DNA from: Mobula hypostoma
Taxonomy: Eukaryota
Assembly: GCF_963921235.1 (NCBI RefSeq)
Contig: NC_086097.1
Coordinates: 115,322,001-115,386,000, forward strand
Direction: 5' to 3'
DNA length: 64,000 bases
The position numbers and the translations under genes were made by a program. The notes beneath the pieces are model-generated. The model did not search any database. It worked only from the letters and a program-made list of their open reading frames with translations, and was not told the origin of the DNA. Positions within the stretch are counted from its first letter, which is position 1, and each line of letters opens with the position of its first letter. Shown here piece by piece: positions 21,501 through 40,617 of the stretch.

Positions 21501-21592
21501 GAACTATGTATATAACCTAATGTCTATGTACATAATCTAATGTCTATGTATATGAACTAATCTAGGTATTTATATTTAATGTGTTTTTTTTA

Positions 21593-22300
21593 TGTAAGGG
21601 GGTTTCGATTTTTATGTTACTGCGGAAGCTAATTAAAATGGCGTCTTTGTTATGTTAATCTGGGGAATACGGCTTTGTTGTCTTAAACGCTGAGAAAGTT
21701 TGCGCTAGCAGCTTGTTGTGGTTTAGAGGGTGATAAGAAATACGTTATTAACCAATTGGGATACTTGTTATGGTTTTGGGGTATTTGAAGATACTGTTTG
21801 CGAGGGGGTTTTGGGGGCAGAAGGCGGGAGAGCGAGACAGAGGATGGACGAGGTGCTGTGAGCCCGCTAACGGGGTCGGACCCCTAGCGGGACGTTCGGC
21901 AAGGAGATGGAGACGGATTTGTGTGGAGCGTCTGGTCGACCACCGTTGTTGGTCCCAGGCGGTCGGTTGAGGTGGTCCGAGGGGGTCGCAGGGTGAAGAA
22001 GAAGGACGTTGAGCTCCAACGGTTTTGTGCATGAAGAGATTGAACTTTGATAAGTGTGGCGCCTTTTATTTTCCTTTTATATTTTATTCTCTTTTAATTA
22101 TATAGTTTAATTATATATTCCAGTAATATCTATAAACTGTAAATCATTTAATTGCATCTGGTGTATTGTCTGTTATTTGGGCGGGGTGGGGTACATCACA
22201 CAGCATCCACACAAACAAGTTATCCAGTTTGGCGGGGCCGAGGCTATTTCCCTAGACGACAGCGAGCCGAGCGACCCTGAGGGTGGCCAGGGGGTCTACA
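21593..22300 (+). repeat. 5' LTR (708 bp)
   Basis: TGTAAGGGGG..GGTCTACA; highly similar to 25003-25700. Confidence 0.95.
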
Positions 22301-22322
22301 TTGTAGAGGCTTTGTCCGGGAT
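22301..22322 (+). promoter_or_regulatory. Primer binding site, tRNA-Pro-like (degenerate)
   Basis: ttgtagaggctttgtccgggat directly after the LTR versus tRNA-Pro complement TGGGGGCTCGTCCGGGAT. Confidence 0.65.
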
Positions 22323-22499
22323 GCTTGAGTCTGTTGGTATGCTGTGTGGGTGCCCTGTTTAAATCTGTAATGTGTGTCTCTGTGGGTTATTTGCTGGTGA
22401 TTGCTGTATGCGTGGTGGGTGTGGTCTTTGTTCGAGTTCAGGCTAGCATTGATGAGTTGGAGGTGGCACTCGGGACTGTCCATGCAGTTGGGAGAGAGA

Positions 22500-22900
22500 G
22501 GAAAGAGTGGTCTGATTTGGAGGTAGAGTCTGCGAATAAATGTTCTAGCTCTGGCAGGCTCCGCCTGGCACTTGGGATAGTGTCCACCCCAAGAGGGGCG
22601 GAGACTAGCGAGACGTGGGCGGAGCGGATCTCTCAGTTGTTAGATGAGTGGCAGTGCTAGGTTGAGGGAGAGTGACAGGGATTGGTTGAAAGTTTAAGTA
22701 GGCGGGCTGGTGATGGTGTTAGAGCTGTCAGGTTCACTTACACCGTAGTGACAGCTGTCAGTTATTTGAAAGAGGGGGGAAAGTTTTCAGTGTGTCTCCT
22801 TTGGCGAGGAGGGTGGCTAAATTGCTTGCAGTGCCAGGGGGATCATTTCAGGGGATCAGTTGTTCAGCTGATCAGAGAGGTGTCGGGAAACTTAGTGGAG
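22500..22900 (+). pseudogene. Degenerate PNMA-type Gypsy gag
   Basis: [49 protein letters not shown]; eroded zinc knuckle [10 protein letters not shown] followed by SGN. Confidence 0.75.
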
Positions 22901-23754
22901 GCCCAGTGGGGGAACGGCCTGAGGTTTCTGGGGAAGCACGTTCCCAGCAATGTACCAATGAACTTCCGAAAGGAAAAGATCCTATTCCTGAAGGCTTAGA
23001 GGGGCCACGCCCCAGGGTGTTGCTATGGATAGAGGGAAGCGATGCTAAAGCCATCCTCGACCCCGGGGCGCAGGTCAAGTTGTTGTACAGTTCGTTTTAC
23101 AACCGGTGTCTGAAGCATTTATCCTTGACAACCGCAAGGGCACCGGAGACTTTGGGTACTAGTGGCAGTAGTTATCCAGAAGACGATGATTGGTTAATGA
23201 CCCTGGAGTTCATGGAGGCATTTTCTGGGCACCCAGCATGTCGAGTTGCTTCTGAGGACGTGTGTAGCAGCCTTGAACCAGTACCGAATTTAAACAAGAC
23301 CCAGCGGTGGTACGGCCTGGGGAAAGTAGCTGAGGGTGAGACCCTCTTAGTAGATGCTCTGAACTACCACAAGGGAGGGGAGTTGACCACTGAAGACACC
23401 TCAGTGAGAGAGAGGTTGCAGCAACTAGACCCTAGCGGCGTGGAAGATGAAGGCAGCGTGTGTGTGGATTATGCGATGTGGTTTAATGTGCTGCATCTGA
23501 GGGGTGGATGTTGCCAGATCCTGAGGAGTACGGCTGTTGAGCCGAAGATGGCCTTTACTCGTTCCCTAGGATTCTTCCGATCTGAAAAGATGCCCAAGGG
23601 CATATCCGGAGCCCCTGCATCCTTCCCGCGGGGCATGAGGAAGACCATGGGGGAAGTGAAGATGTGTGGAGTTTTGACGTATGTGGATGACCGCCTAGAG
23701 CTTGGATTCGCCTGGGGGGACTATGAGGCGAGGCGAGTGGCTGAGCCCGGGTGA
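22792..23754 (+). pseudogene. Internally deleted Gypsy pol (protease and RT remnants)
   Basis: [16 protein letters not shown] (protease DTG site changed to DPG); [32 protein letters not shown]. Confidence 0.85.
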
Positions 23755-23799
23755 CCGAAGCGAAGTGTCAAATGTGGAGGAGTTTTTGGCCGGAGGATT

Positions 23800-24714
23800 T
23801 TGGTGCAATGTGAGAAAAATGACCCGACATACCAGTTGAACTTCCTGGTGTTGGAACAGACGGTGGTGGACCTGGGGATGGAAACCCAGGTCGTCAATCT
23901 GAATGAGACACAGGGAAGAGAGGGGATTTGCACCGCACTGCGGTCATGTACTGATGAATTAATCCAGCGAGAAGAAACAATGACCCATCTTCGAAGGGAT
24001 CAGCAGAAACTCAAGACGTCCATTCAGAACAGATTGGAAGATTTACAAGTTGGGGAAGATCAAGGAAGTGTTCTGACTAGGGACAACAGAAAACCGAGAG
24101 CCCAAGGAGGCGAGTTTGACTACACTCCCGAGGAGGTGAAGAAATGGAGGACAGATCTCGGAAAAGGGAGACAGATGCTTGAAAGGAACCTGAAGATGAC
24201 TATCGCGAGTTTAAATGAAGTGGAAAAACTGAAAGTTGATCTGGAAGACGTCCTCAGGAAGAAACAACCGGAGGCTGAACATTCTTTAACTGCTGCTTTT
24301 CAGGTCAGGGTGGAAGAAGCTGGTGGGGTAACTGCGTCCCAGACTGAGATGGCCAGGAACCCTGAGTCAGAACTGCTGAGGCTGTGGCGAGAGTTGAAGG
24401 AGTCCCCAAAGAAGCTGACGTCTCGACTGCAGGAGGCTGAAGGGGTAGCCCCGGCTAAATGTTTCAGTTTGGAGAAACTTAACCAGCAGCTATCGATCGA
24501 GGGAATGAGGAAGGATACGGATTTGAAGGATGATGTGCTGCACATGTGGAACATGCTACCTTTCGCTAACTTCCCCGTGATTGAGGAAGAGACCTTTGGC
24601 CCTTCTCCCACTGAGTCAGGTGTAGTGGGGAGGGCTAGCTGTGGGCAGTCTGAGTTGCGGCAGGATTGGGAAGGAGGAGAGGCGGGGCCCTGGACACGGG
24701 ACTGGGGACTCTGA
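23800..24714 (+). CDS. Open 304-codon frame encoding captured sarcomeric myosin heavy chain rod segments (MYH16-like) plus a retroelement-like tail; expression unknown
   Basis: EKND, LEDLQVGEDQ, NLKMTIASLNEVEKLKVDLEDVLRKK, RVEEAGGVTASQTEM..ESELLRLWRELKE, KKLTSRLQEAE..AKCFSLEK match myosin S2/LMM motifs in the native order. Confidence 0.75.
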   Translation: MVQCEKNDPTYQLNFLVLEQTVVDLGMETQVVNLNETQGREGICTALRSCTDELIQREETMTHLRRDQQKLKTSIQNRLEDLQVGEDQGSVLTRDNRKPRAQGGEFDYTPEEVKKWRTDLGKGRQMLERNLKMTIASLNEVEKLKVDLEDVLRKKQPEAEHSLTAAFQVRVEEAGGVTASQTEMARNPESELLRLWRELKESPKKLTSRLQEAEGVAPAKCFSLEKLNQQLSIEGMRKDTDLKDDVLHMWNMLPFANFPVIEEETFGPSPTESGVVGRASCGQSELRQDWEGGEAGPWTRDWGL

Positions 24715-24992
24715 GCTGTAGTGGTGGCCTGAGTGAGAGAGGAGTTGGCAAGCAGGCCTGAGGTATCCCTAGTAGTGTCTGAGCCTTTTGGGTTTAGGTG
24801 AGGGAGTACGGAGATCTCAGAGGGTTAAGAAGCTTCCAGATAGGTTGGCCTATTTAGCGCCCGTGGGACGGGAGTAAGGTCCACTGTTTGGGGAGCACTG
24901 TCACTGTGTGTATCTGTGTATGCGTGTGTTGTGTGTCTGTAGGACTGGGTGGCGAGTTATTTAGAAGTCATGAGGACATGACTTTATTTGCT

Positions 24993-25002
24993 GGGGGGAG
25001 AG
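24993..25002 (+). promoter_or_regulatory. Polypurine tract
   Basis: GGGGGGAGAG immediately before the 3' LTR. Confidence 0.85.
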
Positions 25003-25700
25003 TGTAAGGGGGTTTCGATTTTTATGTTACTGCGGAAGCTAATTAAGATGGCGTCTTTGTTATGTTAATCTGGGGAATGCGGCTTTGTTGTCTTAAACGC
25101 TGAGAAAGTTTGCGCTAGCAGCTTGTTGTGGTTTAGAGGGTGATAAGAAATACGTTATTAACCAATTGGGATAGTTGTTATGGTTTTGGGGTATTTGAAG
25201 ATATTGTTTGCGAGGGGGTTTTGGGGGCAGAAGGTGGGAGAGCGAGACAGAGGATGGACGATGTGCTGTGATGTCCACTAATGGGGTCGAACCCCGAGCG
25301 GGACGTTCTGTGAGGAAAGGGAGACGGATTCGTGTGGAGCGTCTGGTTGACCACCGTTGTTGGTCCCAGGCGGCCGGTCCAGGTGGTCCGAGGGGGTCGC
25401 AGGGTGAAGAAGAAGGTCCTTGAGCTCCAACGGTTGTTGTGCACGAAGAGATTGAACTTTGATAAGTGTGGCGCCTTTTATTTTCCTTTTATATTTTATT
25501 CTCTTTTAATTATATAGTTCCAGTAATATCTATAAACTGTAAATCATTTAATTGCATCTGGTGTATTGTCTGTTATTTGGGCGGGGTGGGGTACCTCACA
25601 CAGCATCCACACAAACAAGTTATCCAGTTTGGCGGGGCCGAGGCTGTTTCCCTAGACAACAGCGAGCCGAGCGACCCTGAGAGTGGCCAGGGGGGCTACA
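25003..25700 (+). repeat. 3' LTR (698 bp)
   Basis: TGTAAGGGGG..GGGCTACA followed by TTTA. Confidence 0.95.
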
Positions 25701-26159
25701 TTTATTATTCTCTTTATGCTTCTTGTGAATTTTTTATGCTGCATTGGATCCAGAGTAGCAATCATTTTATTCTGAAAAATGACGATAAACAACCTTGAAG
25801 GTTGAATCTTGAAGATGGGACTAAATAGAGTACAAAAGAGTGAGATGAATATTGGACAAAGTTTGTGGCAAGAGAATGATGAGGAATGACTGAGACAGGT
25901 GTCATGGCTGCTAGAGGATACAATTTGGAGATGATATCACTGATCCTTCCAATGCACATGGGACGGTTGTATCCTTGGTTTTGGAGCTTCACTCCTCCTC
26001 ACATTGATCTCTGAGACAACTTTATCCCACTGCCTTAGGAGGATAAATCTGGAGTTCTCCCATGACTGTGGAAACATATCACCTTACCAATTCAATTACA
26101 CAAACACAAAAGGGCTCAGAACAAAGCTATATCAATTCTGTGCTATTACGGTGTAGACG

Positions 26160-36275: not shown

Positions 36276-38070
36276 TAGACAGAAACAGGTGAATTGATTA
36301 TGGGGAACAAGGACATGGCAGACCAATTGAATAATTACTTTGGTTCTGTCTTCACCAAGGAGGACATAAATAATCTTTCAGAAATAGTAGGGGACAGAGG
36401 GTCCAGTGAGATGGAGGAACTGAGCGAAATGCATGTTAGTAGGGAAGTGGTGTTGGGTAAATTGAAGGGATTGAAGGCAGATAAATCCCCAGGGCCAGAT
36501 GGTCTGCATCCTAGAGTGCTTAAGGAAGTAGCCCAAGAAATAGTGGATGCATCAGTGATAATTTTTCAAATCTCGTTAGATTCTGGACTAGTTCCTGAGG
36601 ATTGGAGGGTGGCTAATGTAACTCCACTTTTTAAAAAAGGAGGGAGAGAGAAACCGGGGAGTTATAGACCGGTTAGCCTAACATCGGTGGTGGGGAAACT
36701 GCTGGAGTCAGTTATCAAGGATGTGATAACAGCACATTTGGAAAGCGGTGAAATGATCGGACAAGGTCAGCATGGATTTGTGAAAGGAAAATCATGTCTG
36801 ACGAATCTCATAGAATTTTTTGAGGATGTAACTAGTAGAGTGGATAGGGGAGAACCAGTGGATGTGGTATATTTGGATTTTCAAAAGGCTTTTGACAAGG
36901 TCCCACACAGGAGATTAGTGTGCAAACTTAAAGCACACGGTATTGGGGGTAAGGTATTGGTGTGGGTGGAGAATTGGTTAGCAGACAGGAAGCAAAGAGT
37001 GGGAATAAACAGGACCTTTTCAGAATGGCAGGCGGTGACTAGTGGGGTACCGCAAGGCTCAGTGCTGGGACCCCAGTTGTTTACAATATATATTAATGAC
37101 TTGGATGAGGGAATTAAATGCAGCATCTCCAAGTTTGCAGATGACACGAAGCTGGGTGGCAGTGTTAGCTGTGAGGAGGACGCTAAGAGGATGCAGGGTG
37201 ACTTGGCTAGGTTGGGTGAGTGGGCAAACTCATGGCAGATGCAATTTAATGTGGATAAATGTGAAGTTATCCACTTTGGTGGCAAAAATAGGAAAACAGA
37301 TTATTATCTGAATGGTGGCCGATTAGGAAAAGGGGAGGTGCAACGAGACCTGGGTGTCATTATACACCAGTCATTGAAAGTGGGCATGCAGGTACAGCAG
37401 GCGGCGAAAGAGGCGAATGGTATGCTGGCATTTATAGCAGAGGATTCGAGTACAGGAGCAGGGAGGTACTACTGCAGTTGTACAAGGCCTTGGTGAGACC
37501 ACACCTGGAGTATTGTGTGCAGTTTTGGTCCCCTAATCTGAGGAAAGACATCCTTGCCATAGAGGGAGTACAAAGAATGTTCACCAGATTGATTCCTGGG
37601 ATGGCAGGACTTTCATATGAAGAAAGACTGGATGAACTGGGCTTGTACTCGTTGGAATTTAGAAGATTGAGGGGGGATCTGATTGAAACGTATAAGATCC
37701 TAAAGGGATTGGACAGGCTAGATGCAGGAAGATTGTTCCCGATGTTGGAGAAGTCCAGAACGAGGGGCCACAGTTTGAGGATAGAGGGGAAGCCTTTTAG
37801 GACCGAGATTAGGAAAAACTTCTTCACACAGAGAGTAGTGAATGTGTGGAATTCTCTGCCACAGGAAACAGTTGAGGTCAGTTCATTGGCTATATTTAAG
37901 AGGGAGTTAGATATGGCCCTTGTGGCTACGGGGGTCAGGGGGTATGGAGGGAAGGCTGGGGCGGGGTTCTGAGTTGGAGGATCAGCCATGATCATAATAA
38001 ATGGTGGTGCAGGCTCGAAGGGCCGAATAGCCTACTCCTGCGCCTATTTTCTATGTTTCTATGTTTCTAT
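36276..38070 (+). mobile_element. Young 5'-truncated CR1 LINE with nearly intact RT
   Basis: 400-aa ORF KSPGPDGLHPRVLKE..YLDFQKAFDKVPH..GVPQGSVLGP..KFADDTK; single frameshift near 37437; (ttctatgt)n tail; nested in an older minus-strand CR1. Confidence 0.96.
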
Positions 38071-38990: not shown

Positions 38991-39761
38991 GAGCTATCAA
39001 TTTCAAAGAAGTGTGGCACTGTGTTCTATGGGACAGTCTTCTTTTTCTCAATTATGAAGAGATTTGAATGCTGTTGTCCTAGTCCGTGTTATTCTCCACT
39101 GCCATAAAGGTCGGAGTATACCACCTTGAGAACATTATAACTGCTGATGACTACTCTATTGGGAAAGTATAATGGATGACATAATTAGAGGACACATTCT
39201 AAGTATTTCTGCACCATGATTTAATTTGTCTCACTGGCGTGTGATACCTTTAAAAGTAACTTCTCTCCTGGGAAGAATAACTTCCATTTGCCTTATACAT
39301 GAGTTACATTCAAATATATCAAAGTAAAATGTCCCACAGGAGCAACAGTAAACAGACTTGTGATTTTCTTCATACAAGAATGCTTATACAGAAGGTGATA
39401 GATAAATATTTTTAACAGAAGTATTGACTATTTTAGGTCCTAATAGAACAACAAGCGAAAGATGCCCATGTTACCACCTGTTAATGGATTTTATATTGAT
39501 ATGCAGTAGCTAATCAACTAAATCAATAAGCTCCCTTTACTTCAGCAAAGGTAACAATAAGCTAATGCCAAGAGAAAAATACTTGGACTGAGGAGAATGG
39601 CCGAGGTGGCTGAATATAAAACACGACTGTCAAACATTAAGCAGTTCTACACAGTCACATAAGCAGGAAGGTGATATGCTTGCAGGTAACCATTTTTTCA
39701 CAAAGCTTCAATCAGCACATATGTTGTTATTCTTTTTCATTATTTTCCACCAGGCTGTTGT

Positions 39762-40617
39762 TTGAGTGGGCAAATTCATGGCAGATGCAATTTAATGTGG
39801 ATAAATGTGAAGTTATCCACTTTGGTGGCAAAAATAGGAAAACAGATTATTATCTGAATGGTGGCCGATTAGGAAAAGGGGAGGTGCAACGAGATCTGGG
39901 TGTCATTATACACCAGTCATTGAAAGTGGGCATGCAGGTACAGCAGGCGGTGAAAAAGGCGAATGGTATGCTGGCATTTATAGCGAGAGGATTCGAGTAC
40001 AGGAGCAGGGAGGTACTACTGCAGCTGTACAAGGCCTTGGTGAGACCACACCTGGAGTATTGTGTGCAGTTTTGGTCCCCTAATCTGAGGAAAGACATCC
40101 TTGCCATAGAGGGAGTACAAAGAATGTTCACCAGATTGATTCCTGGGATGGCAGGACTTTCATATGAAGAAAGACTGGATGAACTGGGTTTGTACTCGTT
40201 GGAATTTAGAAGATCGAGAGGGGATCTGATTGAAACGTATAAAATCCTAAAGGGATTGGACAGGCTAGATGCAGGAAGATTGTTCCCGATGTTGGGGAAG
40301 TCCAGAACGAGGGGTCACAGTTTGAGGATAAAGGGGAAGCCTTTTAGGACCGAGATTAGGAAAAACTTCTTCACACAGAGAGTGGTGAATCTGTGGAATT
40401 CTCTGCCACAGGAAACAGTTAAGTCCAGTTCATTGGCTATATTTAAGAGGGAGTTAGATATGGCCCTTGTGGCTACGGGGGTCAGGGGGTATGGAGGGAA
40501 GGCTGGTGCAGGGTTCTGAGTTGAATGATCAGCAATGATCATAATAAATGGCGGTGCAGGCTCGAAGGGCCGAATGGCCTACTCCTGCACCTATTTTCTA
40601 TGTTTCTATGTTTCTAT
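39762..40617 (+). mobile_element. Young CR1 3' copy, same subfamily as 36276-38070
   Basis: Near-identical to 37217-38070, including the tail. Confidence 0.95.

What the first reader, a model, noticed from the sequence alone, without database searches (positions are those of the whole stretch)
23800..24714. Captured myosin segments are joined in frame across several internal deletions
Relative to myosin, at least four stretches are skipped (near ICTAL/RSC, KKQP/EAEHSL, AAFQ/VRVEE, LKES/PKKL), yet one stop-free 304-codon frame keeps the myosin reading frame throughout. The pol remnant likewise stays open for 320 codons despite large deletions. Frame retention in so divergent a sequence could reflect selection for a coiled-coil accessory protein or for translatability (NMD avoidance). 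This is inference; the ORF begins at TTG, with ATGs further in.
Basis: inference. Interest (0 to 1): 0.7.

Follow-up and report, generated by a model that had tools for sequence, protein, structure and literature searches.

The report
Ray retrotransposon keeps scrambled myosin readable
A crippled jumping gene of rays carries intron-free pieces of a host myosin gene joined in one reading frame across five deletions, and because its long-lived lineages keep that frame open while the protein sequence drifts, being translated, rather than the protein made, likely helps these elements spread.

Summary
Confirmed and extended. Window 21593-25700 is one decayed copy of an abundant non-autonomous Ty3/Gypsy LTR element (1527 candidates). 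It carries spliced pieces of a host MYH16-like gene at G000:C68:14.5-14.7 Mb. Against that donor, five deletions (120, 27, 126, 624, 9 nt) all keep frame. The TTG-started 304-codon ORF is not a gene of its own: it is the rear of a 668-codon pol-remnant/myosin frame cut by stops nearly private to this copy. Across 119 loci, 13 of 13 lineage-level myosin deletions keep frame (P about 8e-6 allowing for microhomology), against 10 of 75 small residual indels. Amino acids are unconstrained: dN/dS is at neutral level, heptad a/d sites are not spared, prolines accumulate. So a coiled-coil accessory protein is unlikely; selection for an open frame is supported on long branches. It is leaky: an early pol-frame stop is shared by 9 of 26 young copies, and some independent insertions share lesions. 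Best guess: translation through the frame, entered by a retained -1 slippery site, protects the RNA from decay (untested). Works like mouse IAP 1delta1 and LTR-mediated retrocopies. The scan noted this family at other loci before.

The parts
21589..21592 (.). target-site duplication TTTA (5' copy)
   Evidence: same 4 bases at 25701-25704
21593..22300 (+). 5' LTR, TG...CA, 708 nt
   Evidence: 29 mismatches in 696 aligned bases to the 3' LTR
22301..22325 (+). degenerate primer-binding site (tRNA-Pro-like; label recalled, not tested)
   Evidence: sequence
22307..22999 (+). deleted PNMA-like gag remnant frame; two stops (22658, 22673) nearly private to this copy; family stop at 22997
   Evidence: PNMA E 6e-4 below cut-off in copy L029
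22885..22945 (+). candidate -1 ribosomal frameshift signal: G GGA AAC heptamer in the gag frame, downstream hairpin, and 22910-22916 complementary to 22939-22945 (possible pseudoknot)
   Evidence: heptamer intact in 19 of 26 sister copies; function untested
22885..23871 (+). pol remnant (protease, RT and RNase H pieces, each read in its natural frame, all in one window frame); stop at 23752 nearly private
23865..23936 (+). myosin block 1 (donor CDS nt 51-122, exon-23 equivalent), followed by a 120-nt deletion
   Evidence: 78% identity
23937..24264 (+). myosin block 2 (donor nt 243-570), crosses two donor exon junctions without a gap; followed by a 27-nt deletion
   Evidence: 81% identity
24265..24303 (+). 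myosin block 3 (donor nt 598-636), followed by a 126-nt deletion
   Evidence: 82% identity
24304..24396 (+). myosin block 4 (donor nt 763-855), crosses one exon junction; followed by the 624-nt deletion at a GAGGAG microhomology
   Evidence: 86% identity
24397..24444 (+). myosin block 5 (donor nt 1480-1527), followed by a 9-nt deletion
   Evidence: 85% identity
24445..24502 (+). myosin block 6 (donor nt 1537-1594)
   Evidence: 72% identity
24511..24732 (+). integrase C-terminal tail, in frame to 24690, then a shared frameshift; family stop at 24730 (this copy stops at 24712)
24993..25002 (+). polypurine tract
25003..25700 (+). 3' LTR, TG...CA, 698 nt

Best explanation
This is a decayed copy of a helper-dependent Ty3/Gypsy element that carries spliced host myosin pieces fused in frame to its pol remnant, and its long-lived lineages likely keep that frame open because ribosomes running through it, whatever they make, would protect the element's RNA from decay. 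Shown: the element anatomy, the donor gene, the intron-free capture, in-frame joints at both capture ends, 13 of 13 lineage-level deletions in frame, no fixed stop in the frame, amino-acid drift at neutral rate, loss of frame only in the last about 300 nt before the 3' LTR. Inferred: capture and deletions arose by reverse-transcriptase template switching; an integrase-bearing relative supplied the enzymes in trans; ribosomes enter the frame by -1 slippage at 22885-22891; a stop far from the 3' end exposes a 2-kb untranslated tail to UPF1-dependent decay, so frame-broken RNAs are packaged less and such lineages leave fewer descendants. The myosin is filler: an already stop-free, same-sense stretch. 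Selection is quantitative, not absolute.
For: Window deletions 5 of 5 in frame. 13 of 13 deletions shared by 2 or more of 119 distinct loci in frame, P 8.3e-6 conditional on exact microhomology, 6 of them with 0-1 nt of it; 12 of 13 have 2 or more carriers found by DNA searches, not the protein search. Small residual indels 10 of 75 in frame; indels separating this copy from most of 20 copies of another subfamily in 3' UTR and LTR 6 of 21 in frame. No majority stop in 668 codons versus 40 and 49 in the off frames, 26 copies; the same over about 638 codons in the 429-deletion subfamily, 27 copies, whose shared coding indels are -3, -159, -153, -12. Neutral simulation: 3.2-5.1 stops expected in 183 myosin codons (P0 0.03-0.003), 5.2-6.3 in 242 pol codons (P0 about 0.001). 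dN/dS on the branch to this subfamily: myosin 0.59 (NG86), inside the simulated neutral range (medians 0.46-0.72); gag and pol remnants 1.03 each versus 0.26 and 0.57 between integrase-bearing copies. Shared frameshifts begin only after 24690. Slippery heptamer intact in 19 of 26 and 16 of 21 copies of two subfamilies. Family sequence in 4 of 4 laid runs from 3 studies, which a control shows to be RNA. Low-level readthrough inhibits NMD of long 3' UTRs (PMC5360307, passages); a frameshift element stabilised an NMD reporter in plants (PMC6277124, abstract).
Against: A non-CpG stop at 23026, 46 codons into the pol frame, is shared by 9 of 26 young copies, a gag stop at 22829 by 7 of 26, and 7 of 26 have a changed heptamer. 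Three pairs of insertions with different flanks share stops or a frameshift (L011/L014, L007/L025, L005/L008), so broken templates were copied at least once (or converted). Within the youngest subfamily stop depletion among shared variants is weak (2 of 119 versus 21 of 416 singletons). For the three other subfamilies the stop simulation alone is not significant (P0 0.12-0.29), nor for gag (0.11-0.18). The pol branch includes some time as an autonomous element. The frameshift region is more conserved than the median window (0.83 versus 0.75) but not the most conserved. All 6 large single-locus deletions are also in frame: probably unsampled lineages, but a mechanistic bias is not excluded. Cattle D-type ERVK elements spread well with no intact ORF (PMC10924933, passages). 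No strand, ribosome or decay data.
Confidence: 0.55

Rival explanations
1. The frameshifted Gag-Pol-myosin product itself acts in cis, as reported for mouse IAP 1delta1: the nascent fusion tethers its own RNA to the helper's particle, and needs only a few residues plus an unbroken spacer.
For: Precedent: the 1delta1 gag-pol fusion facilitates retrotransposition in cis (PMC6466679 and PMC7411935, passages citing Saito et al. 2008). Gag frame has no majority stop from 22330 to 22997 and the heptamer is mostly kept. Two long helices are still predicted.
Against: dN/dS 1.03 in both gag and pol remnants; gag has lost several blocks and scores below the PNMA cut-off; a cis-acting N-terminus would not need the frame open to within 270 nt of the LTR; gag stop in 7 of 26 copies.
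Confidence: 0.2
2. No selection: the frame is inherited from two coding parents, and template-switch deletions fall in frame because repeated coiled-coil words give in-frame microhomology.
For: 7 of 13 deletions have 2-11 nt microhomology and in-frame share rises to about 0.6 at 7 nt or more; frame-broken templates did propagate; all 6 large single-locus deletions in frame; elements without ORFs can spread.
Against: Conditional P 8e-6; the 120, 27 and 126 deletions of this lineage have no exact microhomology; no fixed stop after about 0.19 and 0.24 substitutions per site where 3-5 and 5-6 are expected; shared shifts in non-coding parts are mostly out of frame.
Confidence: 0.12
3. The myosin pieces are selected as a coiled-coil accessory protein (oligomer or scaffold for the element, or a host factor).
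For: 66% identity to the donor rod remains (122 of 184); AlphaFold2 on the single sequence predicts two long helices with pLDDT 70-83.
Against: a/d identity equals other positions (0.66 versus 0.66) and is not higher in any of four subfamilies; 6 prolines in 212 residues versus 0 in 534; crude coiled-coil score at shuffled level; only 2 of 13 deletions are whole heptads and different subfamilies delete different parts, one keeping only about 120 codons; dN/dS neutral; model overall pLDDT 48.9, pTM 0.25.
Confidence: 0.05

Closest known systems
LTR-mediated retrocopies of animals (Tan et al. 2016, PMC5131818; abstract and section 8 read)
   Same: Spliced host mRNA piece inside a discontinuous LTR element, sense strand, microsimilarity at the switch points, in frame with the parent protein.
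   Different: Those cases are mostly single young loci that gather loss-of-function changes with age; here the chimera became a family of over 1500 candidates with many subfamilies, found in two ray genera, and kept the frame on long branches without amino-acid constraint.
Mouse IAP 1delta1 (PMC6466679, PMC7411935; passages; the primary paper by Saito et al. 2008 could not be read)
   Same: Non-autonomous LTR element with an in-frame deletion making a gag-pol fusion; helper in trans; translation reported to aid mobility.
   Different: IAP is an ERV with one deletion and a product said to act in cis; this is Ty3/Gypsy with at least 13 successive in-frame deletions in foreign cargo and neutral amino-acid drift.
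Non-autonomous Athila families (PMC2410132; passages) and maize Bs1 (named; otherwise recalled)
   Same: Helper-dependent LTR elements that keep open ORFs; Bs1 carries transduced host gene pieces.
   Different: Athila ORFs are under purifying selection on amino acids; here they are not.

Membership tests
Ty3/Gypsy LTR retrotransposon (non-autonomous derivative) | Two LTRs with TG...CA ends, short TSD, PBS and PPT | tested here: met
   tRNA identity of the PBS is recalled only
Ty3/Gypsy LTR retrotransposon (non-autonomous derivative) | Domain order protease-RT-RNase H-integrase in full relatives | tested here: met
   Pfam RVT_1, RT_RNaseH, Integrase_H2C2, rve above cut-off in that order in L273/L267; window remnants collinear
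Ty3/Gypsy LTR retrotransposon (non-autonomous derivative) | No env; Gypsy-type (PNMA-like) gag | tested here: met
   about 500 nt between integrase tail and 3' LTR in L268; PNMA hit weak, E 6e-4; no RT tree was built
Ty3/Gypsy LTR retrotransposon (non-autonomous derivative) | Lacks own enzymes yet amplified | tested here: met
   RT core, most RNase H and integrase deleted; 1527 candidates; independent flanks
LTR-mediated retrocopy (Tan et al. 2016) | Intron-free parental sequence | tested here: met
   nine donor exons spread over 180 kb joined in copy L091; three junctions crossed without gap in the window
LTR-mediated retrocopy (Tan et al. 2016) | Flanked by discontinuous LTR-element sequence with microsimilarity at switch points | tested here: met
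   5' and 3' junction alignments; no significance test
IAP 1delta1-like cis-acting gag-pol fusion | In-frame fusion across the deletion | tested here: met
IAP 1delta1-like cis-acting gag-pol fusion | Translation or product raises mobility in cis | not testable with these tools
   indirect only; counter-examples
Functional myosin-rod coiled coil | Conserved heptad a/d core, no prolines, purifying selection | tested here: not met
MYH16 (donor gene) | Orthology by tree and synteny; motor domain | tested here: inconclusive
   best named hit myosin-16-like, 65% over 82 aa; 61% to another gene at C36; no motor match near the donor, but the search used a strict first look; no tree built

The most novel reading that the evidence does not exclude
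A vertebrate non-autonomous LTR family has been selected over many successive lineages for a stop-free frame with no regard to what it encodes, using stolen myosin as translatable filler behind a retained -1 frameshift signal: a natural record that ribosome passage itself, as a shield against nonsense-mediated decay, is a fitness trait of parasitic retroelement RNAs, with dozens of natural open and broken variants to test it.
Probability: 0.4. Interest if true: 0.72.

Novelty: new variant of a known kind. Interest (0 to 1): 0.48.

Why it matters
An open frame in a transposon is usually read as a sign of a useful protein. Here frame and protein are uncoupled: deletions and substitutions are filtered for frame and stops, not for amino acids. 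If translation itself is the selected trait, it explains why some defective LTR elements keep long nonsense ORFs, offers a natural test of how decay surveillance restricts retroelements in vertebrates, and warns annotators: copies are already called as genes or spliced into gene models in two ray genomes.

Tried and rejected
Fast-muscle myosin paralogs at C68:15.3-15.9 Mb as donor: only about 55-70% DNA identity; rejected once the C68:14.5-14.7 Mb gene matched at 72-96%. Exon skipping as the cause of the deletions: no deletion of this copy has both ends at donor exon boundaries. TTG-started stand-alone ORF: rejected. Pfam on the window ORF: nothing above cut-off. Non-muscle myosin retrocopies L031-L056 tested (8 loci): no match to this element. 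Stop shared by 8 of 44 copies of the 429 subfamily: at a CGA codon with CAA changes too, carriers not one supported clade, read as recurrent CpG decay; the -2 shift at an AG run recurs in three subfamilies, though L100 and L244 share nearby changes. Loop-to-3' pair counts were mis-registered by one base and are not used. Sequencing-run search: no RNA holder listed on record; RNA status rests on the intron-skipping control, in which intronic repeats were also covered, so presence in RNA does not show the element's own transcription. AlphaFold model too weak for a fold search. Three copies (L004, L018, L020) were left out as rearranged. Paper searches (listings only) listed no description of this family; the library lacks most subscription journals and repeat databases were not searchable, so absence from print is not shown. 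Saito et al. 2008 was not held; no supplements were read, and those of Tan et al. could list such a case.

Full report
What is there. Window 21593-25700 is an LTR element: LTRs 21593-22300 and 25003-25700 with TG...CA ends, 29 mismatches in 696 bases, a TTTA target-site duplication, a degenerate primer site and a polypurine tract. A DNA search with the 915-base ORF gave 1527 candidates in the 3.48-Gb genome, the 39 best others at 95-96% identity. Relatives with full RT, RNase H and integrase, in Ty3/Gypsy order and without room for env, are in the same genome, as are relatives that lack integrase but carry no myosin. Protein hits from Mobula birostris and Hypanus sabinus (the sources' labels) put the family in myliobatiform rays.

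The donor. Fast-muscle paralogs matched poorly. A search with a host exon led to a gene at G000:C68:14.52-14.72 Mb, MYH16-like by best named hit only. Copy L091 joins nine of its exons, spread over 180 kb, at 80-96% identity: the cargo came from spliced mRNA. Both capture joints lie at short in-frame similarities between element and donor, as described for LTR-mediated retrocopies (PMC5131818, abstract and section 8). The 3' joint resembles that of the integrase-less relatives, so capture probably happened into an already defective element (inferred).

The observation. Against the donor coding sequence the window copy has six blocks and five deletions of 120, 27, 126, 624 and 9 nt. The ORF's limits are private: 25 of 26 sister copies have no stop at 23752 and 24 of 26 none at 24712; the family frame runs 22723-24732 with no majority stop, against 40 and 49 majority stops in the other frames (three rearranged copies left out). 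Protease, RT, RNase H and integrase-tail pieces all read in their natural frame within it. Single copies decay: 21 of 29 have a stop or frameshift in 23755-24714, 22 of 26 have a stop somewhere in the 668 codons.

Is frame retention more than chance? In 119 distinct myosin-bearing loci, 13 deletions are shared by two or more loci: 9, 27, 57, 60, 72, 105, 120, 126, 219, 243, 429, 624, 837 nt. All are multiples of 3. Repeated coiled-coil words do favour in-frame microhomology (in-frame share 0.32 at 0 nt, about 0.6 at 7 nt or more), but the product conditional on each junction is 8.3e-6, and six junctions have 0-1 nt. Some may be nested in others. Twelve have two or more carriers found by DNA searches. 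Controls: 10 of 75 small residual indels and 6 of 21 indels in 3' UTR and LTR are in frame (the latter include changes private to the window copy). A second subfamily shows the same: no majority stop over about 638 codons in 27 copies and shared coding indels of -3, -159, -153, -12, with one -1 in 3 copies near the end. Neutral simulation expects 3.2-5.1 stops for the 0.19 substitutions per site on the myosin stem (P of none 0.03-0.003) and 5.2-6.3 for the pol remnant (about 0.001); for three shorter stems and for gag it is not significant.

Is the protein selected? No sign of it. dN/dS on the branch to this subfamily is 0.59 by NG86 (0.92 with a transition bias of 4), within the simulated neutral range; 1.03 for gag and pol remnants. 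Identity by codon position is 0.83, 0.81, 0.78. Heptad a/d positions are not spared, 6 prolines stand in 212 residues against none in 534 of the donor, and a home-made coiled-coil score is at shuffled level. Only 2 of 13 deletions are whole heptads. AlphaFold2 gives two long helices and otherwise low confidence.

How it likely works. Gag and pol overlap in the -1 sense, and a G GGA AAC heptamer with a downstream hairpin sits at 22885; it is intact in 19 of 26 and 16 of 21 copies of two subfamilies. Shared frameshifts appear only after 24690, within about 300 nt of the 3' LTR. That pattern, open to near the 3' end and indifferent to amino acids, is what selection against a long untranslated tail would leave. 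Readthrough of a few percent inhibits NMD of long 3' UTRs in human cells (PMC5360307, passages), and a frameshift element did so in plants (PMC6277124, abstract). These steps are inferred. Family sequence covers all 30 bins in four laid runs from three studies, which are RNA because their contigs skip two introns of a host gene; strand, origin and translation are unknown, and intronic repeats were covered too.

What speaks against. In the youngest subfamily a stop at 23026 is shared by 9 of 26 copies, a gag stop at 22829 by 7 of 26, and 7 of 26 have a changed heptamer. Three pairs with different flanks share lesions. Stop depletion among shared variants there is weak, 2 of 119 against 21 of 416 singletons. 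So broken templates can be copied; the claim is only that they do not found long lineages. All 6 large single-locus deletions are in frame too, and cattle D-type ERVK elements spread without ORFs (PMC10924933, passages). I sampled about 120 of well over 1500 copies, chosen by similarity.

Known kinds. It is a member of the LTR-mediated retrocopies and of non-autonomous Ty3/Gypsy elements. It works like mouse IAP 1delta1, whose in-frame gag-pol fusion aids mobility in cis (PMC6466679, PMC7411935, passages), but whether product or passage matters is open. My reading was written down before the scan's notes were opened; eight earlier notes describe the same family at other loci, several with the same open-frame idea. 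They are not independent support. This report adds the deletion census with a microhomology null, the non-coding control, the frameshift signal and the counter-examples.

Verdict. Observation confirmed; coiled-coil protein unlikely; selection for an open frame likely; decay avoidance the best guess (0.55). New variant of a known kind; interest 0.48.

Noticed in passing
G000:C68:14,524,969-14,720,000 (L107-L146): The donor is a divergent MYH16-like gene with very long introns and extra introns splitting the exon-24, -27 and -31 equivalents; no upstream exon-22 or motor match was found within 105 kb (strict search), in line with earlier notes calling it motor-less.
   Followed up: partly
window 22907-22909 and L268-L278: All 6 integrase-bearing copies end gag at a stop 15 nt after the slippery heptamer; 25 of 26 and 19 of 21 myosin-bearing copies examined have a sense codon there and gag runs about 30 codons further.
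   Followed up: partly
L153, L154, L156 (L274-L276): A second non-autonomous form lacks integrase and myosin, with RNase H joined in frame to the integrase tail: in-frame deletion predates or parallels the capture.
   Followed up: partly
P0003, P0001, P0002, P0004: Copies are annotated as proteins in two ray genomes; one 729-aa element product is named 'transmembrane protein 192 isoform X1' in Hypanus sabinus, probably a mis-joined gene model.
   Followed up: no
L031, L032, L033/L034, L035, L038, L042/L043, L056: Several intron-free, broken copies of a non-muscle myosin rod are scattered in the genome and do not match this element; their vehicle is unknown.
   Followed up: no
window 37211-37738 and 39757-40285: A 97-98% identical direct duplication with a 2547-base period inside a LINE-like stretch.
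   Followed up: no
G000:C68:16,025,073-16,025,348 (L088): A broken sarcomeric myosin exon-27-like piece with two stops beside the myosin cluster.
   Followed up: no
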